A stretch of DNA of 64,000 nucleotides from the NCBI GenBank assembly GCA_963817235.1, contig CAWFNS010000006.1:204163-268162 (forward strand), given 5' to 3'. The notes under the pieces are model-generated. The model was not told the DNA's origin. It was given only the letters and a program-made list of their open reading frames with translations, and searched no databases. The DNA comes from an uncultured Actinomycetes bacterium. Lineage in GTDB: Bacteria > Actinomycetota > UBA4738 > HRBIN12. The translations under genes and the position numbers were made by a program. This document shows, one piece after another, positions 1 to 7,544 of the stretch; positions within the stretch are counted from its first letter, which is position 1, and every line of letters begins with the position of its first letter.

Positions 1-196
1 GGTTCGCCAGGGAGACGACCCACGCCAGGACGTCGGAGAACTCCAGCTCGAGGTTCGCGCGGTCGCCGGTGCGGATCGCGCGGGCGAGCTCGCCGACCTC
101 CTCCGTCAGCCACCGGAACGTCGCGTCGGGGCCGCGCTGCCGATCGCGGGCTTCGTACGTCCGCGCCATCGTCTGCTGGAATCCGGCGAGGTCCAT
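1..196 (-). CDS. MazG-like NTP pyrophosphohydrolase, N-terminal part only (gene continues beyond window start)
   Basis: Reverse translation from ATG at 196 gives MDLAGFQQTMARTYEARDRQRGPDATFRWLTEEVGELARAIRTGDRANLELEFSDVLAWVVSLAN. It contains the EExGE...ExxD helix pair typical of the MazG family. Truncated, so absent from the ORF track. Confidence 0.6.
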   Translation of the reverse strand, partial: MDLAGFQQTMARTYEARDRQRGPDATFRWLTEEVGELARAIRTGDRANLELEFSDVLAWVVSLAN

Positions 197-220
197 GGCG
201 CGGAGACTAGCCTTCGGGTC

Positions 221-265
221 TTGTCTACCGACCGGTAGATAATGCATCATCTACCACGTGGTAGA
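221..265 (+). promoter_or_regulatory. Promoter/operator module 1 upstream of the acyl-CoA reductase gene
   Basis: -35-like TTGTCT at 221-226. Palindrome TCTACCGACCGGTAGA at 224-239. -10-like CATCAT at 245-250. Perfect palindrome TCTACCACGTGGTAGA at 250-265, which covers the GTG start at 258. Near-identical module at 3109-3152. Confidence 0.6.
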
Positions 266-2540
266 GAACCGGGGCTCGATCGTCCAGGCGCTGGCCGGCA
301 AGCGCGTCTTCCTGACCGGCGTGACCGGCTTCCTCGGGCAGGTGATCCTCGAGCGGCTCCTCTTGGACTTCCCCGAGACCGCCGTGACGGTGCTCGTTCG
401 CTCGCAGACCTCCGCCTCCGCCGAGGAGCGGCTCCACTACCTGACGCGCAAGCCGGCGTTCGACGCGCTCCGCGCGCGTCTGGGCGGCGACGATGCGTTG
501 CTGCGGCTGCTGGACGACCGGGTGTCGGTCGTCGACGGCGACTTCACGCAGGGGGAGCCCTCGCTGCCGGCCGGCATCGACGTCGTGATCCACTCCGCCG
601 CGACGGTGAGCTTCGATCCGCCGATCGACGACGCGTTCCGGACGAACGTCCTCGGCGCGCAGAACCTGTATCGGGGCGTCCTCGCGGCCGGGAACGCGCC
701 GCACCTGGTCCACGTCTCGACGGCGTACGTCGCCGGCGTGCAGAAGGGCGTGATCCCGGAGGGGCCGCTGGAGCACCGGGTGGACTACGCCGTCGAGGCC
801 GAGATGGCGATGCGCGCCCGCTCCGAGGTCGAGCTCCAGTCGCGCAAGCCGGAGATGCTCGAGCACTTCATGGCGCGCGCCGCGAAGGATCACTCGCGCG
901 CCGGGCCGAACACGGTCTCGACCGATGCGGAGGAGCGACGGAAGGCCTGGGTCGACGCGCGGCTGATCGAGTACGGGCGGATGCGGGCGCGCACGCTCGG
1001 GTGGCCCGACGTGTACACGTTCACGAAGGCGATGGGCGAGCGGGCCGTGGAGGATCTGGCGCACGCCGAGGGCCTGAGCCTGTCGATCGTCCGTCCGAGC
1101 ATCATCGAGTCGGCGCTGGCGCACCCCGCGCCCGGGTGGATCGACGGGTTCAAGATGGCGGACCCGATCATCCGCGCCTACGGCCTGGGCCAGATCCCCG
1201 AGTTCCCCGGTATCCCCGAGGGCATCGTCGACCTGATCCCGGTCGACTACGTCGTGAACGCGATCGTCGCCGTGGCGGCGTCGCCGCCGCCGCGCGGCGA
1301 GCCCGCGCACTACAACGTTTCGAGCGGCGACCGGAACCCCCTGCGGTTCTTCGAGCTGTACGAGTACGTCCGCGAGTACTTCGAGGCGCATCCTCTCCCC
1401 GAGCGGGGTCGCGGCGAGCACAAGGTGCCGACCTGGGACTTCCCCGGCGACCTGACCGTCGAGCGCATGCTCCGCCGCGCGGAGCGCTTCACCGATCTGG
1501 CCGAGAAGGTCGTGACGCACCTGCCGAAGTCGAAGGCGATGCGGGACGCCGTCACCCGGGTGGACCGCGACAAGGCGCGTGTGGACTTCGTGAAGCGGTA
1601 CTCCGATCTCTACGGGATGTACACCGAGACCGAGGTCGTCTACACGGACGAGCGCGTCGTCGCGCTCTGGAGCGGTCTGTCCGACGAGGACCGGGCGCGG
1701 TTCCCGTTCGACGCCGGCGTGCTCGACTGGAAGCACTACCTCCAGGACGTGCACTGTCCGGCGGTGACGCAGTCGCTCCGGGAGCTGTCGCGCAAGGACC
1801 GGGAGAAGCCGACGGTCACGATCCGGCGCGCCGACGAGCCGGCCCTCGCGGTGTTCGACATGGAGGGAACCATCATCTCCTCGAACGTCGTCGAGTCCTA
1901 CGTGTGGGCGCGCTTCGCCGATCTGGAGGCGAACGAGTGGCCGGCCGAGCTCGTGAGCGTGTTCGGGCGGATCCCCGGCTACCTCCAGACCGATCGCCGC
2001 GACCGGGGCGACTTCCTGCGGACGTTCTTCCGCCGCTACGAGGGGGCGAGCGTCGAGCAGCTCGACCGCCTGATCGACGGTCACGTCGCCGAGTTCATGC
2101 TCCAGAAGGCCTCGCCGGCCGCGATCCGCCGCGTCCGCGAGCACCGCGCGGCCGGCCATCGCACCATCATGATCACCGCCGCCGCGGAGCCGTTCGTCCG
2201 GCCGCTCGCGCCGCTGTTCGACGTGCTGATCGGCGCGGAGCTCGAGGAGCGCGACGGCCGGTACACCGGGTTCATGTCGCAGCCGCCGCTCGTCGGGGAG
2301 GCGAGGGCCGCCTGGTTGCGACGGTACGCCCAGCAGGAGGGCGTGGATCTGCGACGGTCCTTCGCGTACGCCGACTCGTACTCGGACCTGCCGCTGCTGC
2401 GCGCGGTCGGACATCCCGTCGCCGTGTCGCCGGACTCGCAGCTGTACCGGTTCGCCCGTCGTCGGCGCTGGCCGATCGAAGAGTGGGCGATGTCGAAGGG
2501 CATGCCGAAGGTGCGCTTCCCGAAGCCGGCCGTCCGCTAG
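258..2540 (+). CDS. Fatty acyl-CoA reductase (NAD_binding_4/SDR-type) fused to a C-terminal HAD-IB (SerB-like) hydrolase domain
   Basis: 760-aa ORF. Rossmann motif FLTGVTGFLG and YTFTK (YxxxK) in the N-terminal ~400 aa. The C-terminal ~250 aa begins with HAD motif I-like FDMEGTI and ends with YADSYSDLPLL (HAD motif IV-like). Confidence 0.8.
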   Translation: MVENRGSIVQALAGKRVFLTGVTGFLGQVILERLLLDFPETAVTVLVRSQTSASAEERLHYLTRKPAFDALRARLGGDDALLRLLDDRVSVVDGDFTQGEPSLPAGIDVVIHSAATVSFDPPIDDAFRTNVLGAQNLYRGVLAAGNAPHLVHVSTAYVAGVQKGVIPEGPLEHRVDYAVEAEMAMRARSEVELQSRKPEMLEHFMARAAKDHSRAGPNTVSTDAEERRKAWVDARLIEYGRMRARTLGWPDVYTFTKAMGERAVEDLAHAEGLSLSIVRPSIIESALAHPAPGWIDGFKMADPIIRAYGLGQIPEFPGIPEGIVDLIPVDYVVNAIVAVAASPPPRGEPAHYNVSSGDRNPLRFFELYEYVREYFEAHPLPERGRGEHKVPTWDFPGDLTVERMLRRAERFTDLAEKVVTHLPKSKAMRDAVTRVDRDKARVDFVKRYSDLYGMYTETEVVYTDERVVALWSGLSDEDRARFPFDAGVLDWKHYLQDVHCPAVTQSLRELSRKDREKPTVTIRRADEPALAVFDMEGTIISSNVVESYVWARFADLEANEWPAELVSVFGRIPGYLQTDRRDRGDFLRTFFRRYEGASVEQLDRLIDGHVAEFMLQKASPAAIRRVREHRAAGHRTIMITAAAEPFVRPLAPLFDVLIGAELEERDGRYTGFMSQPPLVGEARAAWLRRYAQQEGVDLRRSFAYADSYSDLPLLRAVGHPVAVSPDSQLYRFARRRRWPIEEWAMSKGMPKVRFPKPAVR

Positions 2541-3049
2541 CCGTCCTCCGGCTCGGCCAACTCCGGCACCAGCTCGGCCGGGTCGTCGCCCAGGAGGTAC
2601 CGGGCGCTCGTGCCCTTCGTGGCGGCGATGTCCTGCGGGTTGTAGAGGCCGCACGTCTGCAACGAGAGGCAGCCGCAGCCGATGCAGCTCGTCAGCTCGT
2701 CCCGGAGCCGCTCGAGCGTGCCGATCCGCTCGTCCAGCTCGCCCCGCCACGAACGGCTGAGCTTGGCCCACTGCGCCTTCGTCGGTGCCCGGTCGGGCGG
2801 CAAGGTCGCGAGGGCCGCCGCCACCTCCTGGAGCGACATGCCCATCCGCTGCGCGATCCGGATGAACGCGACGCGACGGAGCACGTGCCGGGGGTAGACG
2901 CGGTGGCCGCCGCTGGTCCGTTCCGAGCGGATCAGCCCGAGCGACTCGTAGAAGCGCAGGGCCGACGTCGCGACGTCGCTGCGGGCCGCGACCTCGCCGA
3001 TCGAGAGCCCGTCGTTCGGAGACTTCGGCTCGGTGGCGGTGCTTCGCAT
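2537..3049 (-). CDS. soxR: SoxR-type MerR-family redox-sensing transcriptional regulator
   Basis: MerR HTH IGEVAARSDVATSALRFYESLGLI, plus the C-terminal [2Fe-2S] cysteine signature CIGCGCLSLQTCGLYNP. Confidence 0.9.
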   Translation of the reverse strand: MRSTATEPKSPNDGLSIGEVAARSDVATSALRFYESLGLIRSERTSGGHRVYPRHVLRRVAFIRIAQRMGMSLQEVAAALATLPPDRAPTKAQWAKLSRSWRGELDERIGTLERLRDELTSCIGCGCLSLQTCGLYNPQDIAATKGTSARYLLGDDPAELVPELAEPEDG

Positions 3050-3108
3050 GTGATAGCAATCCTAAAGTTCCCTCGAGGTTTGTCCCGGGTCGAGGAAAGA
3101 CTTGCTAC

Positions 3109-3152
3109 TTGTCTACCAACCGGTAGAGATGCATAATCTGCCACATGGTAGA
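3109..3152 (+). promoter_or_regulatory. Promoter/operator module 2 upstream of the ADH operon
   Basis: -35-like TTGTCT at 3109-3114. Palindrome TCTACCAACCGGTAGA at 3112-3127. -10 CATAAT at 3132-3137 (17-bp spacer). Palindrome TCTGCCACATGGTAGA at 3137-3152, which covers an ATG at 3145. Confidence 0.6.
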
Positions 3153-3189
3153 CAAAGGCTCGGGGGCGCTCGCGGGGCGAGAGTCGTGA
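3145..3189 (+). other. Possible leaderless 14-codon mini-ORF (MVDKGSGALAGRES) coupled to the ADH start
   Basis: The ATG at 3145 sits 7-8 nt after the -10 box. The stop TGA at 3187-3189 overlaps the GTG at 3186-3188 (GTGA). The first codons (ATG GTA GAC) mirror the start of the reductase gene (GTG GTA GAG). It could instead be the true ADH start, disrupted by an indel. Confidence 0.3.
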
Positions 3190-4404
3190 CGACCCTTGCG
3201 CTGGAGTACTTCCGTAGCGTGCCCCGATACGTTGGCGCCCGAACCGTCGGCGCGAAAGCCCCGGGGTTGATCGCCGGACCGCTCGCGCCGCTCCGCCTGG
3301 CGCAGATCAAGGATCCCGCCCCGCCGAAGGGCCGCGACGGCTGGGTGCGCGTGAAGCCGGTCCTGTCCGGCATCTGCGGCAGCGATCTGTCGACCCTGGC
3401 CGGGCGCTCCTCGTTCTACTTCTCGCCGCTCGTGTCGACGCCGTTCGTCCCCGGCCACGAGGTGGTCGGCGAGCTCCTCGACGCGGTCGACGACATCCCC
3501 GTGGGCGGCCGCGTCGTGCTCTCGTCGGTGCTGGGATGCGAGGCTCGCGGCGAGGACCCGCTCTGCCCGAACTGCGCGGCCGGCGACGTCGGCCGCTGCG
3601 ACCGCGTCACCGTCGGGCACCTGAAGCCCGGCCTGCAGACCGGCTACTGCGCGCAGACGGGCGGCGGCTGGAGCCGGCAGTTCGTCGCGCATCGCTCGCA
3701 GCTCCACGCGGTCCCCGACGCGACCTCGGACGAGGCCGCCGTGCTGGTCGAGCCGTTCGCGTGCGCGATCCACGCCGCGCTCCGTGCCCGGATCGAGCCG
3801 GGGCAGACCGTCGTGATCGTCGGGGCCGGGACCGTCGGGATCCTCACGCTCATCGCGGTGCGGCTGCTCACGCAGCCGGGACAGGTCATCGTCGCCGCGA
3901 AACATCCGAAGCAGCGCGCGGCCGCGCGTCTGGCCGGCGCGGACGAGGTCGTGCTTCCCGCGCACACGGCGAAGGCCGTGCGGCGGGTCAGCAGCGCGGT
4001 GAAGCTCACGCCGGAGCGCGGCCAGGACTTCCTGCTCGGCGGCGCCGACGTGGCGATCGAGTGCGTCGGCTCTCGCGGCGGACTCGATCTGGCGCTGCGG
4101 ACGGTCCGGGCCGGCGGCCGTGTGGTCGTGAGCGGCATCCCCGGCGCCGGCGCGGATCTCACGCCGCTGTGGTTCCGCGAGCTCGAGCTGGTCGGCGCGT
4201 ACACCTCCGGCACGGAGACCATGCCCGACGGATCGCGCGTGCGGACGTTCGATCTGGCGCTCGGCGCGGCCGGGAACCTGCCCGGTGCTCGAGCAGCTGG
4301 TCGGGGCCACGTATCCGCTGGACCGGTGGCGCGAGGCGATCGACCACGCGATGTCCGCCGGGAAGCTCGGCACGTTCAAGGTGGCGTTCGCGCCGCAGGG
4401 ATAA
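3186..4404 (+). CDS. Zinc-dependent medium-chain alcohol dehydrogenase/reductase (frame disruption near 4275-4295)
   Basis: Motifs GICGSD, PGHEVVGE, the structural-Zn cluster CEARGEDPLCPNCAAGDVGRC, and Rossmann GAGTVG. The C-terminus LEQLVGATYPLDRWREAIDHAMSAGKLGTFKVAFAPQG is in another frame and ends at TAA 4402-4404. Confidence 0.8.
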
Positions 4405-4420
4405 GGAGAGCCGCAGACAG

Positions 4421-6011
4421 ATGCCCAGACCAGGGTTCGTGTTGGAGGTGGACGAGCGGACGCCGCCCTTGATCGTCCACGAGGGCGAGGGCTACCGGAT
4501 GCAGCGGTTCCCGCTGGGCACGCGCGTCGTGTACCCGCCGGATCCGCTGCCGGGCCTGCGCGACCTCAACGCGCAGATCCGTCGCGCGCTGCTCGAGCCG
4601 GCCGGCGATCAGGAGCCGCTGCCCGAGCTGTTGTTCGCGGGGATGAAGCTCACGATCGCGGTCGACGACCTCTCGGTCCCGCTGCCGCCGATGGTGACCC
4701 CGGACGTGCGTCAGCGCGTGCTCGAGCACGTGATCGAGCTGGCCGCCCGCGCCGGGGTGGAGGACCTCGAGATCGTCGTGGCGACGGCGCTGCACCGCCG
4801 GATGACGCCCGAGGAGATCCGCCGGATGGTCGGCGAGCGCGTCTACCGCTCCTTCTGGCCCGATCGCCTGTACAACTTCGACGCCGAGGACAAGGACGGG
4901 CTCGCGTACATCGGCCAGACCGACATGGGCGAGGACGTCGAGATCATGAAGCGGGCGGCCGAGTCCGACCTGATCGTCTACGTGAACATCAACCTCGTGG
5001 CGATGGACGGCGGCCACAAGTCGGTCGCGATCGGCCTGGCCAGCTACAAGAGCCTTCGGCACCACCACAACGTGCACACGATGCTCGAGTCGAAGAGCTA
5101 CATGGATCCGCGTCCGGGACACTCGGCGATCAACGACTCGAGCATCCGGATGGGCAGGCTCCTCGCCGCCAACGGCGTGAAGGTGTTCCAGATCGAGACC
5201 ACGGTGAACAGCGAGACCTTCCCGTCGCAGCTCGGGTTCCTCAACAAGCGGGAATGGGAGTGGTCCGTGAAGGACCAGGCCCTGATGATGGCCGCGAAGA
5301 AGGGGAACGACCTCGCGCCGCCGCGCGTGCGGCGGGAGTTCTTCCGTCGGATCGAGGCGTCGTACAAGGTCACCGGCGTCAACGCCGGCGAGGTGGAGGC
5401 GGTCCACGAGCGGACGCTCGAGAACCTGCACCGCCAGCAGCTGGTCGAGGTGAGCGGCCAGTCCGACGTCGTGGTGATGGGGATCCCGTACCTCGGGCCG
5501 TACAACGTCAACTCGATCCTGAACCCGATCCTCGTGCACTGCCTCGGGCTCGGGCTACCTGTTCAACATGTACCGGAACGCGCCGCTCGTGCGCGAGGGC
5601 GGCGTCGCGATCCTGTACCACCCGGTGCCGTGGGAGTTCCACACGATCCACCACCCGAGCTACATCGACTTCTTCGAGGAGGTCCTGGCCGACACGACGG
5701 AGCCGAAGGAGATCGAGGACCGCTACGAGGAGCGGTACGCGACCGACCCCTGGTACACGCACCTGTACCGCACGTCGAACGCGTATCACGGCGTGCACCC
5801 GTTCTACATGTGGTACTGGGGCGCGCACGGCCGGGACCACTGCGGCAGCGTGATCTTCGTCGGCGGCGAGCCGAAGACGGTGGCGCGCCTGGGCTACCGC
5901 CGCGCCGACTCGCTCCGCGACGCGTTGGAGATGGCGAAGGACACCGTGGGCTCGTCGCCGTCGATCACGTACTTCCACGCGCCGCCGATCATGATCGCCG
6001 ACGTCCGGTAG
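4421..6011 (+). CDS. LarA-like (DUF2088, nickel-pincer-dependent racemase/epimerase family) protein (frame disruption near 5535-5565)
   Basis: The internal ATG at 4421 of ORF 3536..6193 (MPRPGFVLEV...) joins ORF 5568..6011. Motifs ATALHRR and MDGGHKS...RHHHNVH resemble the catalytic His, the cofactor-tethering Lys and the Ni-ligand His of LarA. Confidence 0.7.
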
Positions 6012-6015
6012 AGCG

Positions 6016-6925
6016 ATGGGCGCGCGCGACGAACTGCAGGAGATGGCCCGGGGGTTCCGGTGGGGGCGCCGACCCCTGGTGCCGCGCTCGGCCGAGCCGT
6101 ACACCGAGGAGCGTGAGGACGGAGGGTTCCCGACGGACTGGGCCCGGACCGCGGGCGGCGTCGCCGCGCGACAGGCGATCCTCCAGGGGTTGATGCATCC
6201 GCTCGTGAAGAACGAGCTGTCGCTCCGGGTCTACGGTCTCGACCGGCTGCGCGACGTGCGCGGCCCGGTGATCTTCTACTCGAACCACTCGAGCCACCTG
6301 GACGCGACGCTGATCATGTGCACCCTGCCCGACCGGTTCCAACGCAAGACGGCCGTCGGCGCCGCGCGCGACTACTTCTTCGACGTGTGGTGGCGGCAGG
6401 CGTTCACCGCGCTCGTGTTCGCCGCGTTCCCGATCGATCGCGGTCGCGGCGGCCAGGGCGCGATCGACAAGGCCCGGGAGCTCGTCCGCGACGACTGGTC
6501 CATCGTGGTCTTCCCCGAAGGCACGCGATCGCCGGACGGGCATCTCCAACGGTTCCGGCACGGGGCGGCGCGCCTCGCGCTGGAGCTGGAGGTCCCGTGC
6601 GTGCCGATCGCGATCGTCGGCGCGTTCCAGGCGATGCCGAAGGGCAAGTGGTGGCCGCGGGAGGGCCGGCCGGTCGTGACCATCCGCTACGGGGAAGCGA
6701 TCGAGGCCACAGACGGCCGAGACGCACCAGTCGCTGTCGTTGCGGATGCAGCAGGCCGTGGCGCAGCTGTTCGACGAGGATCGGACGTCGTGGTGGGAGG
6801 CGATCGGTCGTGCCGACCGCGGTGAGACGCCGTCGCTCGCGGGGCCGTCCGGTTCGGCCTGGCGCCGCACGTGGGAGGGGACGCGGCCGGTGGCGCGCCG
6901 CGGCGAGCCGAAAGCCTGGCGATAG
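6016..6925 (+). CDS. plsC: 1-acyl-sn-glycerol-3-phosphate acyltransferase family (PlsC/AGPAT-like) (frame disruption near 6695-6740)
   Basis: NHSSHLD (HX4D) and FPEGTRS acyltransferase motifs. The C-terminal part (MQQAVAQLFDEDRTSWWEAI...) is in ORF 6740..6925. Confidence 0.8.
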
Positions 6926-6929
6926 CCGC

Positions 6930-7544
6930 ATGCCGCGGACGGGGGGAGAGCGCCGCCGAACCACGATCATCGAAGAGGCGATCCGACAGTTCGGGCGGGA
7001 CGGGTTCAAGGGCGCGTCGCTCGAGCACATCGCGCAGGCGGTCGGGGTCCGCAAGCAGACGCTCCTGTACTACTTCCCCACGAAGGACGCGTTGCTCGAG
7101 GCCTGCTTGACGGCCGCCGGCGATCGGCTCGCGGCCGACATCGGCGCCGCGCTCGCGGACGCCGAGTCGTATTGGGAGAAGGCGGAGGCGGTGATCCACG
7201 CCGTCTTCCGGCTGGCGGCGGACTGGCCCGAGTTCCCGATGTTCGTGCGTGAGGCCGGTCGCTTGGGACCGGAGGCGTTCGACCGGTTCGCGGCCGTGAT
7301 CGATCCGCTCCGCGAGCGCGCGATCGGCTTCCTGCAGACCGGGATGGACGGCGGGGAGATCCGGAAACAGGACCCGGCGATGCTGCTGTTCACGCTCTAC
7401 ACCGCGGTCGTCGGGGCGCTCACCGAGGCATCGGTGCTGAACGCGGTCGTGGGCAACGATGAGAGCCGTGCGTCACTGAAGCGGCGGGAGATCGAGACGC
7501 TGGCGTTCGTCCGGGCGGCGATGCGCCCGCCGGCTCAGGAGTAG
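6930..7544 (+). CDS. TetR-family transcriptional regulator
   Basis: Internal ATG of ORF 6318..7544. N-terminal HTH IIEEAIRQFGRDGFKGASLEHIAQAVGVRKQTLLYYFPTKDALL. It starts 5 nt after the acyltransferase stop, so it is the last gene of the operon. Confidence 0.85.
   Translation: MPRTGGERRRTTIIEEAIRQFGRDGFKGASLEHIAQAVGVRKQTLLYYFPTKDALLEACLTAAGDRLAADIGAALADAESYWEKAEAVIHAVFRLAADWPEFPMFVREAGRLGPEAFDRFAAVIDPLRERAIGFLQTGMDGGEIRKQDPAMLLFTLYTAVVGALTEASVLNAVVGNDESRASLKRREIETLAFVRAAMRPPAQE

What the first reader, a model, noticed from the sequence alone, without database searches (positions are those of the whole stretch)
221..265. A ~45-bp double-palindrome promoter/operator module is duplicated in front of two lipid-related transcription units
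What the sequence shows: TTGTCT-overlapping TCTACCGACCGGTAGA, then TAATGCATCA, then TCTACCACGTGGTAGA at 221-265. The same arrangement recurs at 3109-3152 (TTGTCT / TCTACCAACCGGTAGA / GATGCATAA / TCTGCCACATGGTAGA), in the same orientation. I found no other TCTACC...GGTAGA pair in the window. In both copies, operator 1 lies between the -35 and -10 hexamers. Operator 2 covers the predicted +1 and the start codon, which is a classic repressor geometry.

Inference: the fatty acyl-CoA reductase-HAD gene and the ADH/LarA-like/acyltransferase/TetR operon form one regulon. The operon-encoded TetR (6930-7544) is the most likely cognate repressor. SoxR (2537-3049) is the alternative.
Basis: partly seen in the sequence, partly recalled or inferred. 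Interest (0 to 1): 0.6.

Follow-up and report, generated by a model that had tools for sequence, protein, structure and literature searches.

The report
Duplicated TetR operator-promoter cassette
Two copies of a 45-bp promoter carrying two repressor-binding palindromes control one ancient five-gene cluster that ends in its own TetR-type repressor gene; it is a well-conserved but ordinary example of local gene control in an uncultured soil actinobacterium.

Summary
Modules at 221-265 and 3109-3152 each hold TTG(-35) / Op1 / (C)AT(C/A)AT(-10) / Op2, with consensus operator TCTACC-R-NN-Y-GGTAGA. These four sites are the only strong matches in the 3-Mb genome: 25-28 bits, against 18 for the next best.

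Relatives show the ancestral state. One module sits in front of one tightly packed operon, FAR-HAD > Zn-ADH > LarA-like > acyltransferase > TetR. The ATG/GTG at positions 9-11 of Op2 is the FAR start codon, so the geometry is that of a leaderless promoter.

In 51 loci that cover both ends, the operator and the operon's TetR co-occur perfectly (34 with both, 17 with neither). soxR is present only in this genome and one relative, and it has its own different palindrome. The TetR's closest solved relative is RutR. RutR has the same recognition-helix motif, and its box (TTGACCAnnTGGTCAA) has the same 16-bp ACC...GGT layout.

The second module is a copy of the first that includes FAR's first codons. 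It is confined to two small sub-clades. Its start codon now opens a 14-codon mini-ORF whose TGA overlaps the ADH start, which preserves the ancestral FAR-ADH stop/start coupling.

Verdict: a new member of a known kind (an autoregulated TetR repressor with tandem operators). No binding or transcription-start data could be obtained.

The parts
221..265 (+). Module 1: leaderless promoter of the FAR-HAD gene, with two operators
   Evidence: Conserved in 46 FAR-proximal modules of relatives.
221..226 (+). -35-like hexamer TTGTCT of module 1; its last 3 nt are the first 3 nt of Op1
   Evidence: TTG directly 5' of Op1 in 45 of 46 FAR-proximal modules (the exception is L076).
224..239 (.). Op1 of module 1, TCTACCGACCGGTAGA (7+2+7 palindrome)
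   Evidence: PWM score 26.1 bits.
245..250 (+). -10-like hexamer CATCAT, 18 nt after the -35; its last T is Op2 position 1
   Evidence: Read from the sequence. Relatives mostly have (C/G)ATAAT at this place.
250..265 (.). Op2 of module 1, TCTACCACGTGGTAGA (perfect 16-bp palindrome); contains the FAR start GTG at 258-260
   Evidence: PWM score 28.1 bits. The start codon at Op2 positions 9-11 opens the FAR ORF in all 46 relatives' modules.
258..2540 (+). Fatty acyl-CoA reductase (NAD_binding_4 + Sterile) fused to a HAD-IB hydrolase, 760 aa; first gene of the ancestral operon
   Evidence: Pfam, NCBIfam.
2537..3049 (-). soxR (TIGR01950, 200.9 bits against a cut-off of 116.9); a lineage-specific insertion between FAR and module 2; not part of the module's circuit
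   Evidence: Present at this locus only in G000 and G012.
3109..3152 (+). Module 2: a duplicated promoter/operator cassette in front of ADH
   Evidence: It is the only sigma-70-like promoter hit in 8.4 kb (TTGTCT-17-CATAAT). Found in two sub-clades only.
3112..3127 (.). Op1 of module 2, TCTACCAACCGGTAGA
   Evidence: PWM score 27.0 bits.
3132..3137 (+). -10 hexamer CATAAT of module 2
3137..3152 (.). Op2 of module 2, TCTGCCACATGGTAGA (keeps the TCTGCC variant typical of relatives' Op2)
   Evidence: PWM score 25.2 bits.
3145..3189 (+). 14-codon leaderless mini-ORF (MVDKGSGALAGRES), a remnant of the FAR N-terminus; its TGA overlaps the ADH GTG at 3186 (GTGA)
   Evidence: Homologous mini-ORFs of 14 or 10 codons with an ATGA/GTGA overlap occur in G012, G004, L061, L065 and L089. 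The ancestral FAR stop overlaps or abuts the ADH start.
3186..4472 (+). Zn-dependent medium-chain dehydrogenase; its best named relatives are polyol and sugar-acid dehydrogenases
4469..6011 (+). LarA-like gene (closest to the NPN-dependent hydroxyacid isomerase family LarAH14/15/16); apparent 1-nt frameshift near 5547-5554 in this assembly
6016..6925 (+). PlsC-type acyltransferase; 302 aa in relatives; apparent frameshift near 6680-6717 in this assembly; its stop lies 4 nt before the TetR start
6930..7544 (+). TetR-family regulator (RutR-like DNA-reading head); last gene of the operon; the proposed cognate repressor

Best explanation
Each module is a core promoter for a leaderless mRNA, carrying two 16-bp binding sites (TCTACC-R-NN-Y-GGTAGA) for the TetR-family protein encoded at 6930-7544. 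One dimer on Op1 would occupy the -35/-10 spacer. A second dimer on Op2 would cover the -10 edge, the transcription start and the start codon. Together they would keep RNA polymerase off the promoter. The repressor gene is the last gene of the operon it controls, with its start 4 nt after the acyltransferase stop, so the circuit is autoregulated. Repression is presumably lifted when a small-molecule ligand binds the C-terminal domain. That ligand is unknown; my guess is a substrate or intermediate of the pathway, such as an acyl-CoA, a fatty aldehyde or a fatty alcohol.

Ancestrally, one module drove FAR-HAD > ADH > LarA-like > acyltransferase > TetR. In the sub-clade holding this genome, the cassette plus the first FAR codons was copied to the front of ADH. 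Later, soxR was inserted between FAR and the copy. The copied start codon now opens a 14-codon mini-ORF whose stop overlaps the ADH start. This probably hands ribosomes on to ADH by termination-reinitiation, as the FAR stop did before.

Shown here: sequence anatomy, uniqueness in the genome, conservation, co-occurrence with the TetR, and homology of the copy to the original. Inferred: binding, repression, the transcription start, the inducer and the translational coupling.
For: Uniqueness: the four sites are the only strong matches in the genome. In 96-98% complete relatives the exact motif occurs only at this operon.

Conservation pattern typical of a protein site: the arms are about 99% invariant, the central NN is free, and positions 7 and 10 are R and Y (from 96 operators).

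Phyletic link: 34 of 34 loci with the TetR gene have the operator, and 17 of 17 loci with the same four enzymes but no TetR lack it. The boundary falls at 57-58% FAR identity. The genus members that the strict pattern missed have a CCTACC variant or a contig break.

TetR head: the recognition helix GVRKQTLLYYFPTKDAL is nearly invariant across 43 orthologues. RutR is the closest solved relative by sequence and by fold (TM 0.76-0.78). It has GVSKTNLLYYFPSKEAL and a 16-bp box TTGACCAnnTGGTCAA (PMC2475637), which shares the same ACC-N4-GGT core.

Promoter and leaderless geometry: TTG / 17-18 nt / (C)ATAAT, then 7 nt, then ATG/GTG, which opens the full FAR ORF in 46 of 46 modules. The generic promoter scan's single hit in 8.4 kb is module 2. 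The divergent mazG shows the same TAnnnT + 6-9 nt + ATG geometry in 9 genomes.

Co-transcription of TetR: the acyltransferase stop lies 2-10 nt before the TetR start.

Origin of the copy: the mini-ORFs begin MVENR, MVESR or MVDK, like FAR. The ancestral FAR-stop/ADH-start overlap is documented.
Against: There is no direct evidence of binding, repression or transcription start. The co-occurrence is phylogenetically nested and amounts to essentially one gain, so it is weaker than the 51 loci suggest. The -35 is poor (TTGTCT) and module 1's -10 is only CATCAT. The start codon lies 7 nt after the -10, so the 5' end could be 0 or 1 nt upstream of it. RutR itself can act positively at some promoters, so the sign of regulation rests on site position alone. 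The ligand is a guess: the fold search gives only generic TetR matches. The frame conservation of the mini-ORF rests on just two independent lengths, 41 and 29 nt, both 2 mod 3.
Confidence: 0.8

Rival explanations
1. A regulator encoded elsewhere in the genome, not the operon's TetR, binds the palindromes. The operon's TetR would then have a different, unrecognised site.
For: Nothing here shows binding. Genomes of this kind carry many HTH regulators. The co-occurrence reflects roughly one evolutionary gain and could be a coincidence of lineage.
Against: The motif occurs only at this operon in near-complete genomes, as expected for a local regulator. No other conserved palindrome was seen in the module. 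The 16-bp ACC-N4-GGT layout fits the RutR-like reading head of this TetR. The TetR gene is welded to the operon.
Confidence: 0.1
2. The TetR binds the sites but acts as an activator or dual regulator rather than a plain repressor.
For: Some TetR-family proteins act positively. RutR at carAB (abstract of PMC2952853) and FasR (named among the NCBIfam hits) are examples.
Against: Both sites lie inside the core promoter, in the spacer and over +1, where a bound dimer should exclude RNA polymerase. Activator sites normally lie upstream of -35. In the basal lineage the single site is Op2, over +1.
Confidence: 0.07
3. SoxR (2537-3049) is the protein that binds the modules.
For: It is adjacent to module 2. 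MerR-type sites typically lie between -35 and -10, as Op1 does.
Against: soxR is at this locus only in G000 and G012, whereas the module is present in more than 45 species. G004 has module 2 without soxR. The promoter spacer is 17-18 nt, not the 19-20 nt typical of MerR-type promoters (general knowledge). A separate SoxR-box-like palindrome, CCTAAAGTTCCCTCGAGG, lies at 3061-3078 and is conserved in G012.
Confidence: 0.02
4. The repeats are not regulatory. They would be a chance repeat, a mobile-element end or a recombination site.
For: The cassette has been copied at least once, and a decayed third copy exists in some relatives (L037 at 6138).
Against: The position relative to the FAR start codon is fixed in 46 species. 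The arms are invariant while the centres vary. There are no flanking transposase genes and no target duplications. Chance expectation is far exceeded.
Confidence: 0.01

Closest known systems
Tn10 TetR with its tandem operators tetO1/tetO2
   Same: A TetR-family dimer on each of two neighbouring palindromic operators that overlap the core promoter. The system is autoregulated and ligand-released. Even the half-site resembles it (tetO TCTATC versus TCTACC here; tetO recalled from memory).
   Different: tetO is a 15-bp site with a 1-nt centre, and tetR is transcribed divergently from tetA. Here the sites are 16 bp with a 4-nt centre, spaced 25-26 bp start to start. The regulator is the last gene of the operon, the mRNA is predicted to be leaderless, and the start codon lies inside Op2.
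Escherichia coli RutR and the RutR box
   Same: It is the closest solved homologue by sequence (E 4e-11) and by fold (TM about 0.77). The recognition helix shares the motif LLYYFPxK. The 16-bp palindrome has the same A-C-C-N4-G-G-T core (PMC2475637).
   Different: Identity is only 24-25%. The TIGR03613 score is 59.7 against a cut-off of 368, so this is not a RutR orthologue. The outer bases differ (TCT versus TTG). RutR senses uracil and controls pyrimidine genes, often from sites inside genes.
Leaderless short ORFs at the head of mycobacterial operons (PMC4633059; bioRxiv 10.1101/834739)
   Same: A 5'-AUG mini-ORF is the first cistron of a polycistronic leaderless transcript in an actinobacterium.
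   Different: The mycobacterial polycysteine ORFs are amino-acid-sensing attenuators. This mini-ORF has no conserved peptide. It is a remnant of the FAR N-terminus, and its conserved feature is a stop that overlaps the next start codon.
Acyl-CoA-responsive TetR regulators (Bacillus FadR; mycobacterial MftR, PMC8728441)
   Same: They are TetR-family repressors of lipid-linked operons. Bacillus FadR structures are among the fold matches.
   Different: No specific sequence relationship was found (NCBIfam FadR 27 bits against a cut-off of 200). The ligand here is unknown.

Membership tests
TetR-family transcriptional regulator (protein 6930-7544) | N-terminal TetR-type helix-turn-helix domain (PF00440) | tested here: met
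   TetR_N, 49.6 bits against a cut-off of 24.
TetR-family transcriptional regulator (protein 6930-7544) | All-helical two-domain fold of about 9-10 helices | tested here: met
   The AlphaFold2 model has 9 helices and pLDDT 77.7. 405 PDB matches at E<=0.001; the 50 best listed are all TetR-family regulators.
TetR-family transcriptional regulator (protein 6930-7544) | Binds a palindromic operator near its own gene or operon and is released by a ligand | not testable with these tools
   The palindromes are present and co-occur with the gene. Binding and ligand response need experiments.
RutR (pyrimidine utilisation regulator) equivalog | Score above the curated cut-off of TIGR03613 / NF011584 | tested here: not met
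   59.7 bits against 368, and 46.3 against 230. It is RutR-like, not RutR.
Leaderless promoter / leaderless mRNA | A -10 element a few nt upstream of an ATG/GTG that is the 5' end of the mRNA, with no Shine-Dalgarno leader | tested here: inconclusive
   The sequence geometry fits in 46 of 46 modules, with 7 nt from the -10 to the start codon. The neighbouring mazG shows the same geometry.
SoxR regulon promoter | A SoxR-box palindrome in an over-long (19-20 nt) -35/-10 spacer | tested here: not met
   The module's spacer is 17-18 nt and its palindrome is unrelated. A SoxR-box-like site lies elsewhere, at 3061-3078.
Translationally coupled gene pair (mini-ORF / ADH) | The stop of the upstream ORF overlaps or abuts the downstream start, and downstream translation depends on upstream translation | tested here: inconclusive
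   A GTGA/ATGA overlap is present in all 6 module-2 loci read (window, G012, G004, L061, L065, L089) and at the ancestral FAR/ADH junction. The dependence has not been tested.

The most novel reading that the evidence does not exclude
The copied cassette is more than a spare promoter. The vestigial 10-14-codon leaderless mini-ORF would be kept by selection as a ribosome delivery device. A 70S ribosome would start at the 5'-terminal AUG inside the operator, terminate on the (A/G)UGA, and re-initiate on ADH, which has never had its own ribosome-binding site. This would be a natural case in which splitting an operon required copying promoter, operators and translation start as a single unit. It would also be a case in which an operator half-site dictates the first residues (M/V-V-E/D) of a protein.
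Probability: 0.4. Interest if true: 0.5.

Novelty: new member of a known kind. Interest (0 to 1): 0.33.

Why it matters
The work gives an uncharacterised TetR clade from uncultured soil Actinomycetota a precise predicted operator and a one-operon regulon. That is directly testable, and usable as an orthogonal repressor/operator pair. It also ties five genes into one functional unit (reductase-phosphatase fusion, dehydrogenase, LarA-like isomerase, acyltransferase and regulator). This helps anyone trying to work out what this widespread actinobacterial four-enzyme cluster makes. Finally, it offers a clean evolutionary series: one operator, then two, then a duplicated cassette, then an inserted gene. 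That series shows how an operon can be split without losing its control or its translational coupling. None of this would surprise a specialist in bacterial gene regulation.

Tried and rejected

2. My first idea was that the soxR insertion forced the duplication. I rejected it because G004, at 98% FAR identity, has module 2 directly after FAR with no soxR. In addition, a second sub-clade has a different gene upstream, a small Cys-rich ORF on the opposite strand.

3. Other regulon members: none found in this genome or in near-complete relatives. The exception is a decayed extra copy of the cassette 3.8 kb upstream in three relatives. It sits next to ORFs with no clear family.

4. Homology between the 3' part of the mini-ORF and the 3' end of FAR: by eye the resemblance is too weak in this GC-rich sequence to claim.

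5. Ligand inference from the modelled fold: only generic TetR matches were found.

6. Genus members that seemed to lack the motif: explained by a CCTACC variant of Op1, by contig ends, or by absence of the TetR gene from the assembly.

7. A literature search for a described TetR with a leaderless operator layout like this one: nothing specific was found.

Full report
**1. The observation**

The window reads TTGTCTACCGACCGGTAGATAATGCATCATCTACCACGTGGTAGA at 221-265. It reads TTGTCTACCAACCGGTAGAGATGCATAATCTGCCACATGGTAGA at 3109-3152, in the same orientation. Allowing two mismatches, TCTACCN4GGTAGA matches only these four sites in 64 kb. The chance expectation is 0.62, and none of 100 shuffles reached four.

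The window is contig 6 of a 2.99-Mb, 71% G+C, 13-contig assembly that is about 76% complete. In the whole assembly the exact motif occurs only at these modules. A weight matrix built only from relatives' operators scores the four sites at 25-28 bits. The next best sites, both inside coding sequence, score 18.2 and 14.5 bits.

**2. The genes**
- A MazG-type gene runs leftward from 196.
- 258-2540 encodes a 760-aa fatty acyl-CoA reductase (NAD_binding_4 + Sterile) fused to a HAD-IB hydrolase.
- 2537-3049 on the minus strand encodes a true SoxR (TIGR01950, 200.9 bits against a cut-off of 116.9).
- 3186-4472 encodes a Zn-dependent dehydrogenase whose best named relatives act on polyols and sugar acids.
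- Next come a LarA-like gene, closest to the LarAH14/15/16 hydroxyacid isomerases, and a PlsC-type acyltransferase.
- 6930-7544 encodes a TetR-family regulator. rpsD converges on it.

**3. What relatives show**

The double palindrome was found in 24 of 61 related genomes, and the reversed control pattern gave no hits. The misses were later explained (section 5). A scan of named genomes with the FAR-HAD protein returned 80 loci. The carriers are uncultured soil Actinomycetota MAGs.

In these genomes a single module precedes one compact gene string: FAR-HAD > ADH > LarA-like > acyltransferase > TetR.

The anatomy of the module is constant. TTG comes first, followed directly by Op1. A 9-10-nt spacer ends in (C/G)ATAA, and its final T is the first base of Op2. 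An ATG or GTG sits at positions 9-11 of Op2. In all 46 FAR-proximal modules that codon opens the FAR frame, which runs 746-807 aa or to the contig end. As a result every FAR begins M/V-V-E/D.

Over 96 operators the arms are about 99% invariant. Position 7 is a purine, position 10 is a pyrimidine, and the two central bases are free. This is the footprint of a dimeric DNA-binding protein.

The -35 (TTGTCT), the 17-18-nt spacer, the -10, and the 7 nt to the start codon describe a promoter for a leaderless mRNA. This is a common arrangement in actinobacteria (PMC4633059; bioRxiv 10.1101/834739). A generic promoter scan of 8.4 kb gave one hit, which is exactly module 2. The divergent mazG gene shows the same TAnnnT + 6-9 nt + ATG geometry in nine genomes. 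Leaderless starts therefore look like the local habit.

**4. Which protein binds**

The four enzyme genes form a cluster that is widespread in Actinomycetota. Examples include Rugosimonospora, Phytohabitans, Actinoallomurus, and MAGs of Mycobacteriales, Pseudonocardiaceae and Nitriliruptorales.

Among 51 loci that cover both the FAR 5' end and the region after the acyltransferase, 34 have the TetR gene and all 34 have the operator. The other 17 lack the TetR gene and all 17 lack the operator. The boundary lies between neighbouring branches of the FAR tree, with L087/L088/L094 on one side and L086/L090 on the other. This amounts to essentially one evolutionary gain, so it is supportive rather than statistical proof.

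Several further points agree:
- In relatives the acyltransferase stop lies 2-10 nt before the TetR start (4 nt here), so the regulator is co-transcribed with what it controls.
- The TetR recognition helix GVRKQTLLYYFPTKDAL is nearly invariant in 43 orthologues, matching the invariant operator arms.
- The nearest solved protein is E. coli RutR, by sequence and by fold (TM 0.76-0.78; model pLDDT 77.7).
- RutR has GVSKTNLLYYFPSKEAL. Its box TTGACCAnnTGGTCAA (PMC2475637) has the same 16-bp layout and the same ACC-N4-GGT core as TCTACCRnnYGGTAGA.
- The protein is not a RutR orthologue (59.7 bits against a cut-off of 368).

SoxR is excluded as the binder. It lies at this locus only in this genome and in G012. 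The spacer is not over-long. A different, SoxR-box-like palindrome (CCTAAAGTTCCCTCGAGG, 3061-3078) sits next to soxR and is conserved in G012.

**5. Regulon size and apparent exceptions**

In relatives that are 96-98% complete, the exact motif occurs only at this operon. The regulator is therefore local and dedicated.

Fifteen genus members were missed by the strict double pattern:
- Ten have the TetR orthologue.
- In the three whose contigs reach a promoter (G019, G011, G010), the operators are present. In G019 and G011 the FAR-proximal Op1 reads CCTACC, which explains the miss. G010 shows the expanded ADH-proximal module 2, whose operator spacing falls outside the strict pattern.
- In five others the fetched contig ends before the promoter, and two (G031, G032) gave only partial TetR hits at contig ends and were not followed up.
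- Five lack both the TetR gene and the motif.

No genome shows the TetR without the operator.

**6. History of the operators**

The earliest-branching TetR-bearing lineage has only Op2, over the start site. Most lineages have Op1 and Op2. One group keeps Op1 while Op2 has decayed.

Module 2, in front of ADH, occurs only in two well-supported sub-clades inside one 22-species clade:
- A compact form, with operators 25 bp apart, is found in this genome, G012 and G004.
- An expanded form, with operators 40-41 bp apart, is found in L061, L065/G002, L089 and G010.

Module 2 is a copy of module 1. It includes the start codon and the first FAR codons: MVENR, MVESR or MVDK, against VVENR in FAR.

G004 is 98% identical in FAR and has module 2 immediately after FAR, with no soxR. 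The copy therefore was not simply a response to the soxR insertion. Instead, soxR entered later (or was lost in G004) at a junction that is generally insertion-prone. Other genomes carry toxin-antitoxin-like ORFs or a small Cys-rich ORF at the same place.

**7. The mini-ORF**

In module 2 the ATG inside Op2 (3145) opens MVDKGSGALAGRES. Its TGA (3187-3189) overlaps the ADH GTG at 3186.

In all six module-2 loci read, the equivalent ORF has 14 or 10 codons and ends in ATGA or GTGA on the ADH start, although the peptide itself is not conserved. In genomes without an insertion, the FAR stop overlaps or abuts the ADH start (ATGA, GTGA or TGATG), from the closest relatives out to Micromonosporaceae.

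ADH therefore appears to have always been translated by coupling, and the copy preserved that arrangement. This is suggestive only. The two lengths (41 and 29 nt) give just two independent in-frame events.

**8. Mechanism proposed**

TetR dimers on Op1 (in the spacer) and Op2 (over the -10 edge, +1 and the start codon) would block RNA polymerase at both promoters. Because the repressor gene is the last cistron, the circuit is autoregulated. An unknown ligand, most plausibly a pathway substrate or intermediate, would release the repressor. Binding, the sign of regulation, the 5' ends and the inducer are all inferred.

**9. Comparison and verdict**

The system works like Tn10 TetR with tetO1/tetO2 and has a RutR-like reading head. 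It is a member of the TetR family but not of any characterised subfamily.

It is a new member of a known kind. The conservation evidence is unusually clear, and the evolutionary series is tidy: one operator, then two, then a duplicated cassette with a vestigial leaderless start, then an inserted gene. It is not surprising to a specialist.

I put the TetR-repressor explanation at 0.8 and interest at about 0.33.

Noticed in passing
window 5547-5554 (LarA-like gene, 4469-6011): Apparent 1-nt insertion. Relatives encode a single 513-aa ORF, but here residues 1-362 and 360-513 lie in different frames, so the 574-aa ORF in the ORF list has a spurious Arg/Pro-rich tail. This may be an assembly error or a real frameshift.
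   Followed up: partly
window 6680-6717 (acyltransferase, 6016-6925): A second apparent frameshift. Relatives have a 302-aa ORF that ends 2-10 nt before the TetR start. Here the C-terminal 80 residues are in another frame. Two frameshifts in one operon suggest indel errors in the assembly.
   Followed up: partly
window 3061-3078: A SoxR-box-like palindrome, CCTAAAGTTCCCTCGAGG, lies 12 nt upstream of the soxR start codon. It is conserved as CTTAGAGTCCCCTTGAGG in G012 (L030). It is probably SoxR's own site and is separate from module 2.
   Followed up: partly
window 2537-2540: The convergent FAR and soxR genes share their stop codons in the 4-nt palindrome CTAG, and no terminator-like hairpin lies between them. 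Transcripts from module 1 would therefore run antisense into soxR.
   Followed up: no
window 194-209 (minus strand): mazG also looks leaderless, with TAGTCT followed by 7 nt and then ATG. This geometry is conserved in 9 genomes. In this genome Op1 lies at about -28 to -43 of that start, so the TetR might also affect mazG. The adjacency is not conserved in many relatives.
   Followed up: partly
L037 6138-6175 (also L026 at 13890 and L029 at 6000): A third, half-decayed copy of the cassette (TTG + intact Op1 + degenerate Op2) lies 3.8 kb upstream of the operon in three relatives. It sits between ORFs with no clear family.
   Followed up: partly
L061 1860-2140; L065 8900-9260; L089 2330-2530; L130: In the sub-clade with the expanded module 2, a small Cys-rich ORF lies on the opposite strand just upstream of Op1 (...CKVCKFMFPP...GSCRFVRGVIEGSKTCDEF...). 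Op1 there is shifted 15 bp away from the -10 and may serve a divergent promoter.
   Followed up: no
L021, L022, L027, L031, L034 (FAR-ADH gap, 800-1040 bp): By eye, the FAR-ADH junction holds small toxin-antitoxin-like ORFs in several relatives (MazF/RHH-like, AbrB-like, VapB-like and HigBA-like). No second module was detected there. The junction seems to be an insertion hot spot.
   Followed up: no
L071 versus L073: A contig labelled Candidatus Limnocylindrales (Chloroflexota) carries a FAR-HAD nearly identical to that of an Actinomycetota MAG (end branches 0.0014 and 0.0016). The bin is probably mislabelled.
   Followed up: no
window 258-6925 and loci L085-L116: The four-enzyme cluster (FAR-HAD, Zn-ADH, LarA-like, PlsC-type acyltransferase) is conserved, without the TetR, in cultured genera (Rugosimonospora, Phytohabitans, Actinoallomurus). 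Its product could be studied there. The ADH and LarA-like relatives point to a polyol or sugar-acid moiety rather than a purely fatty substrate.
   Followed up: partly
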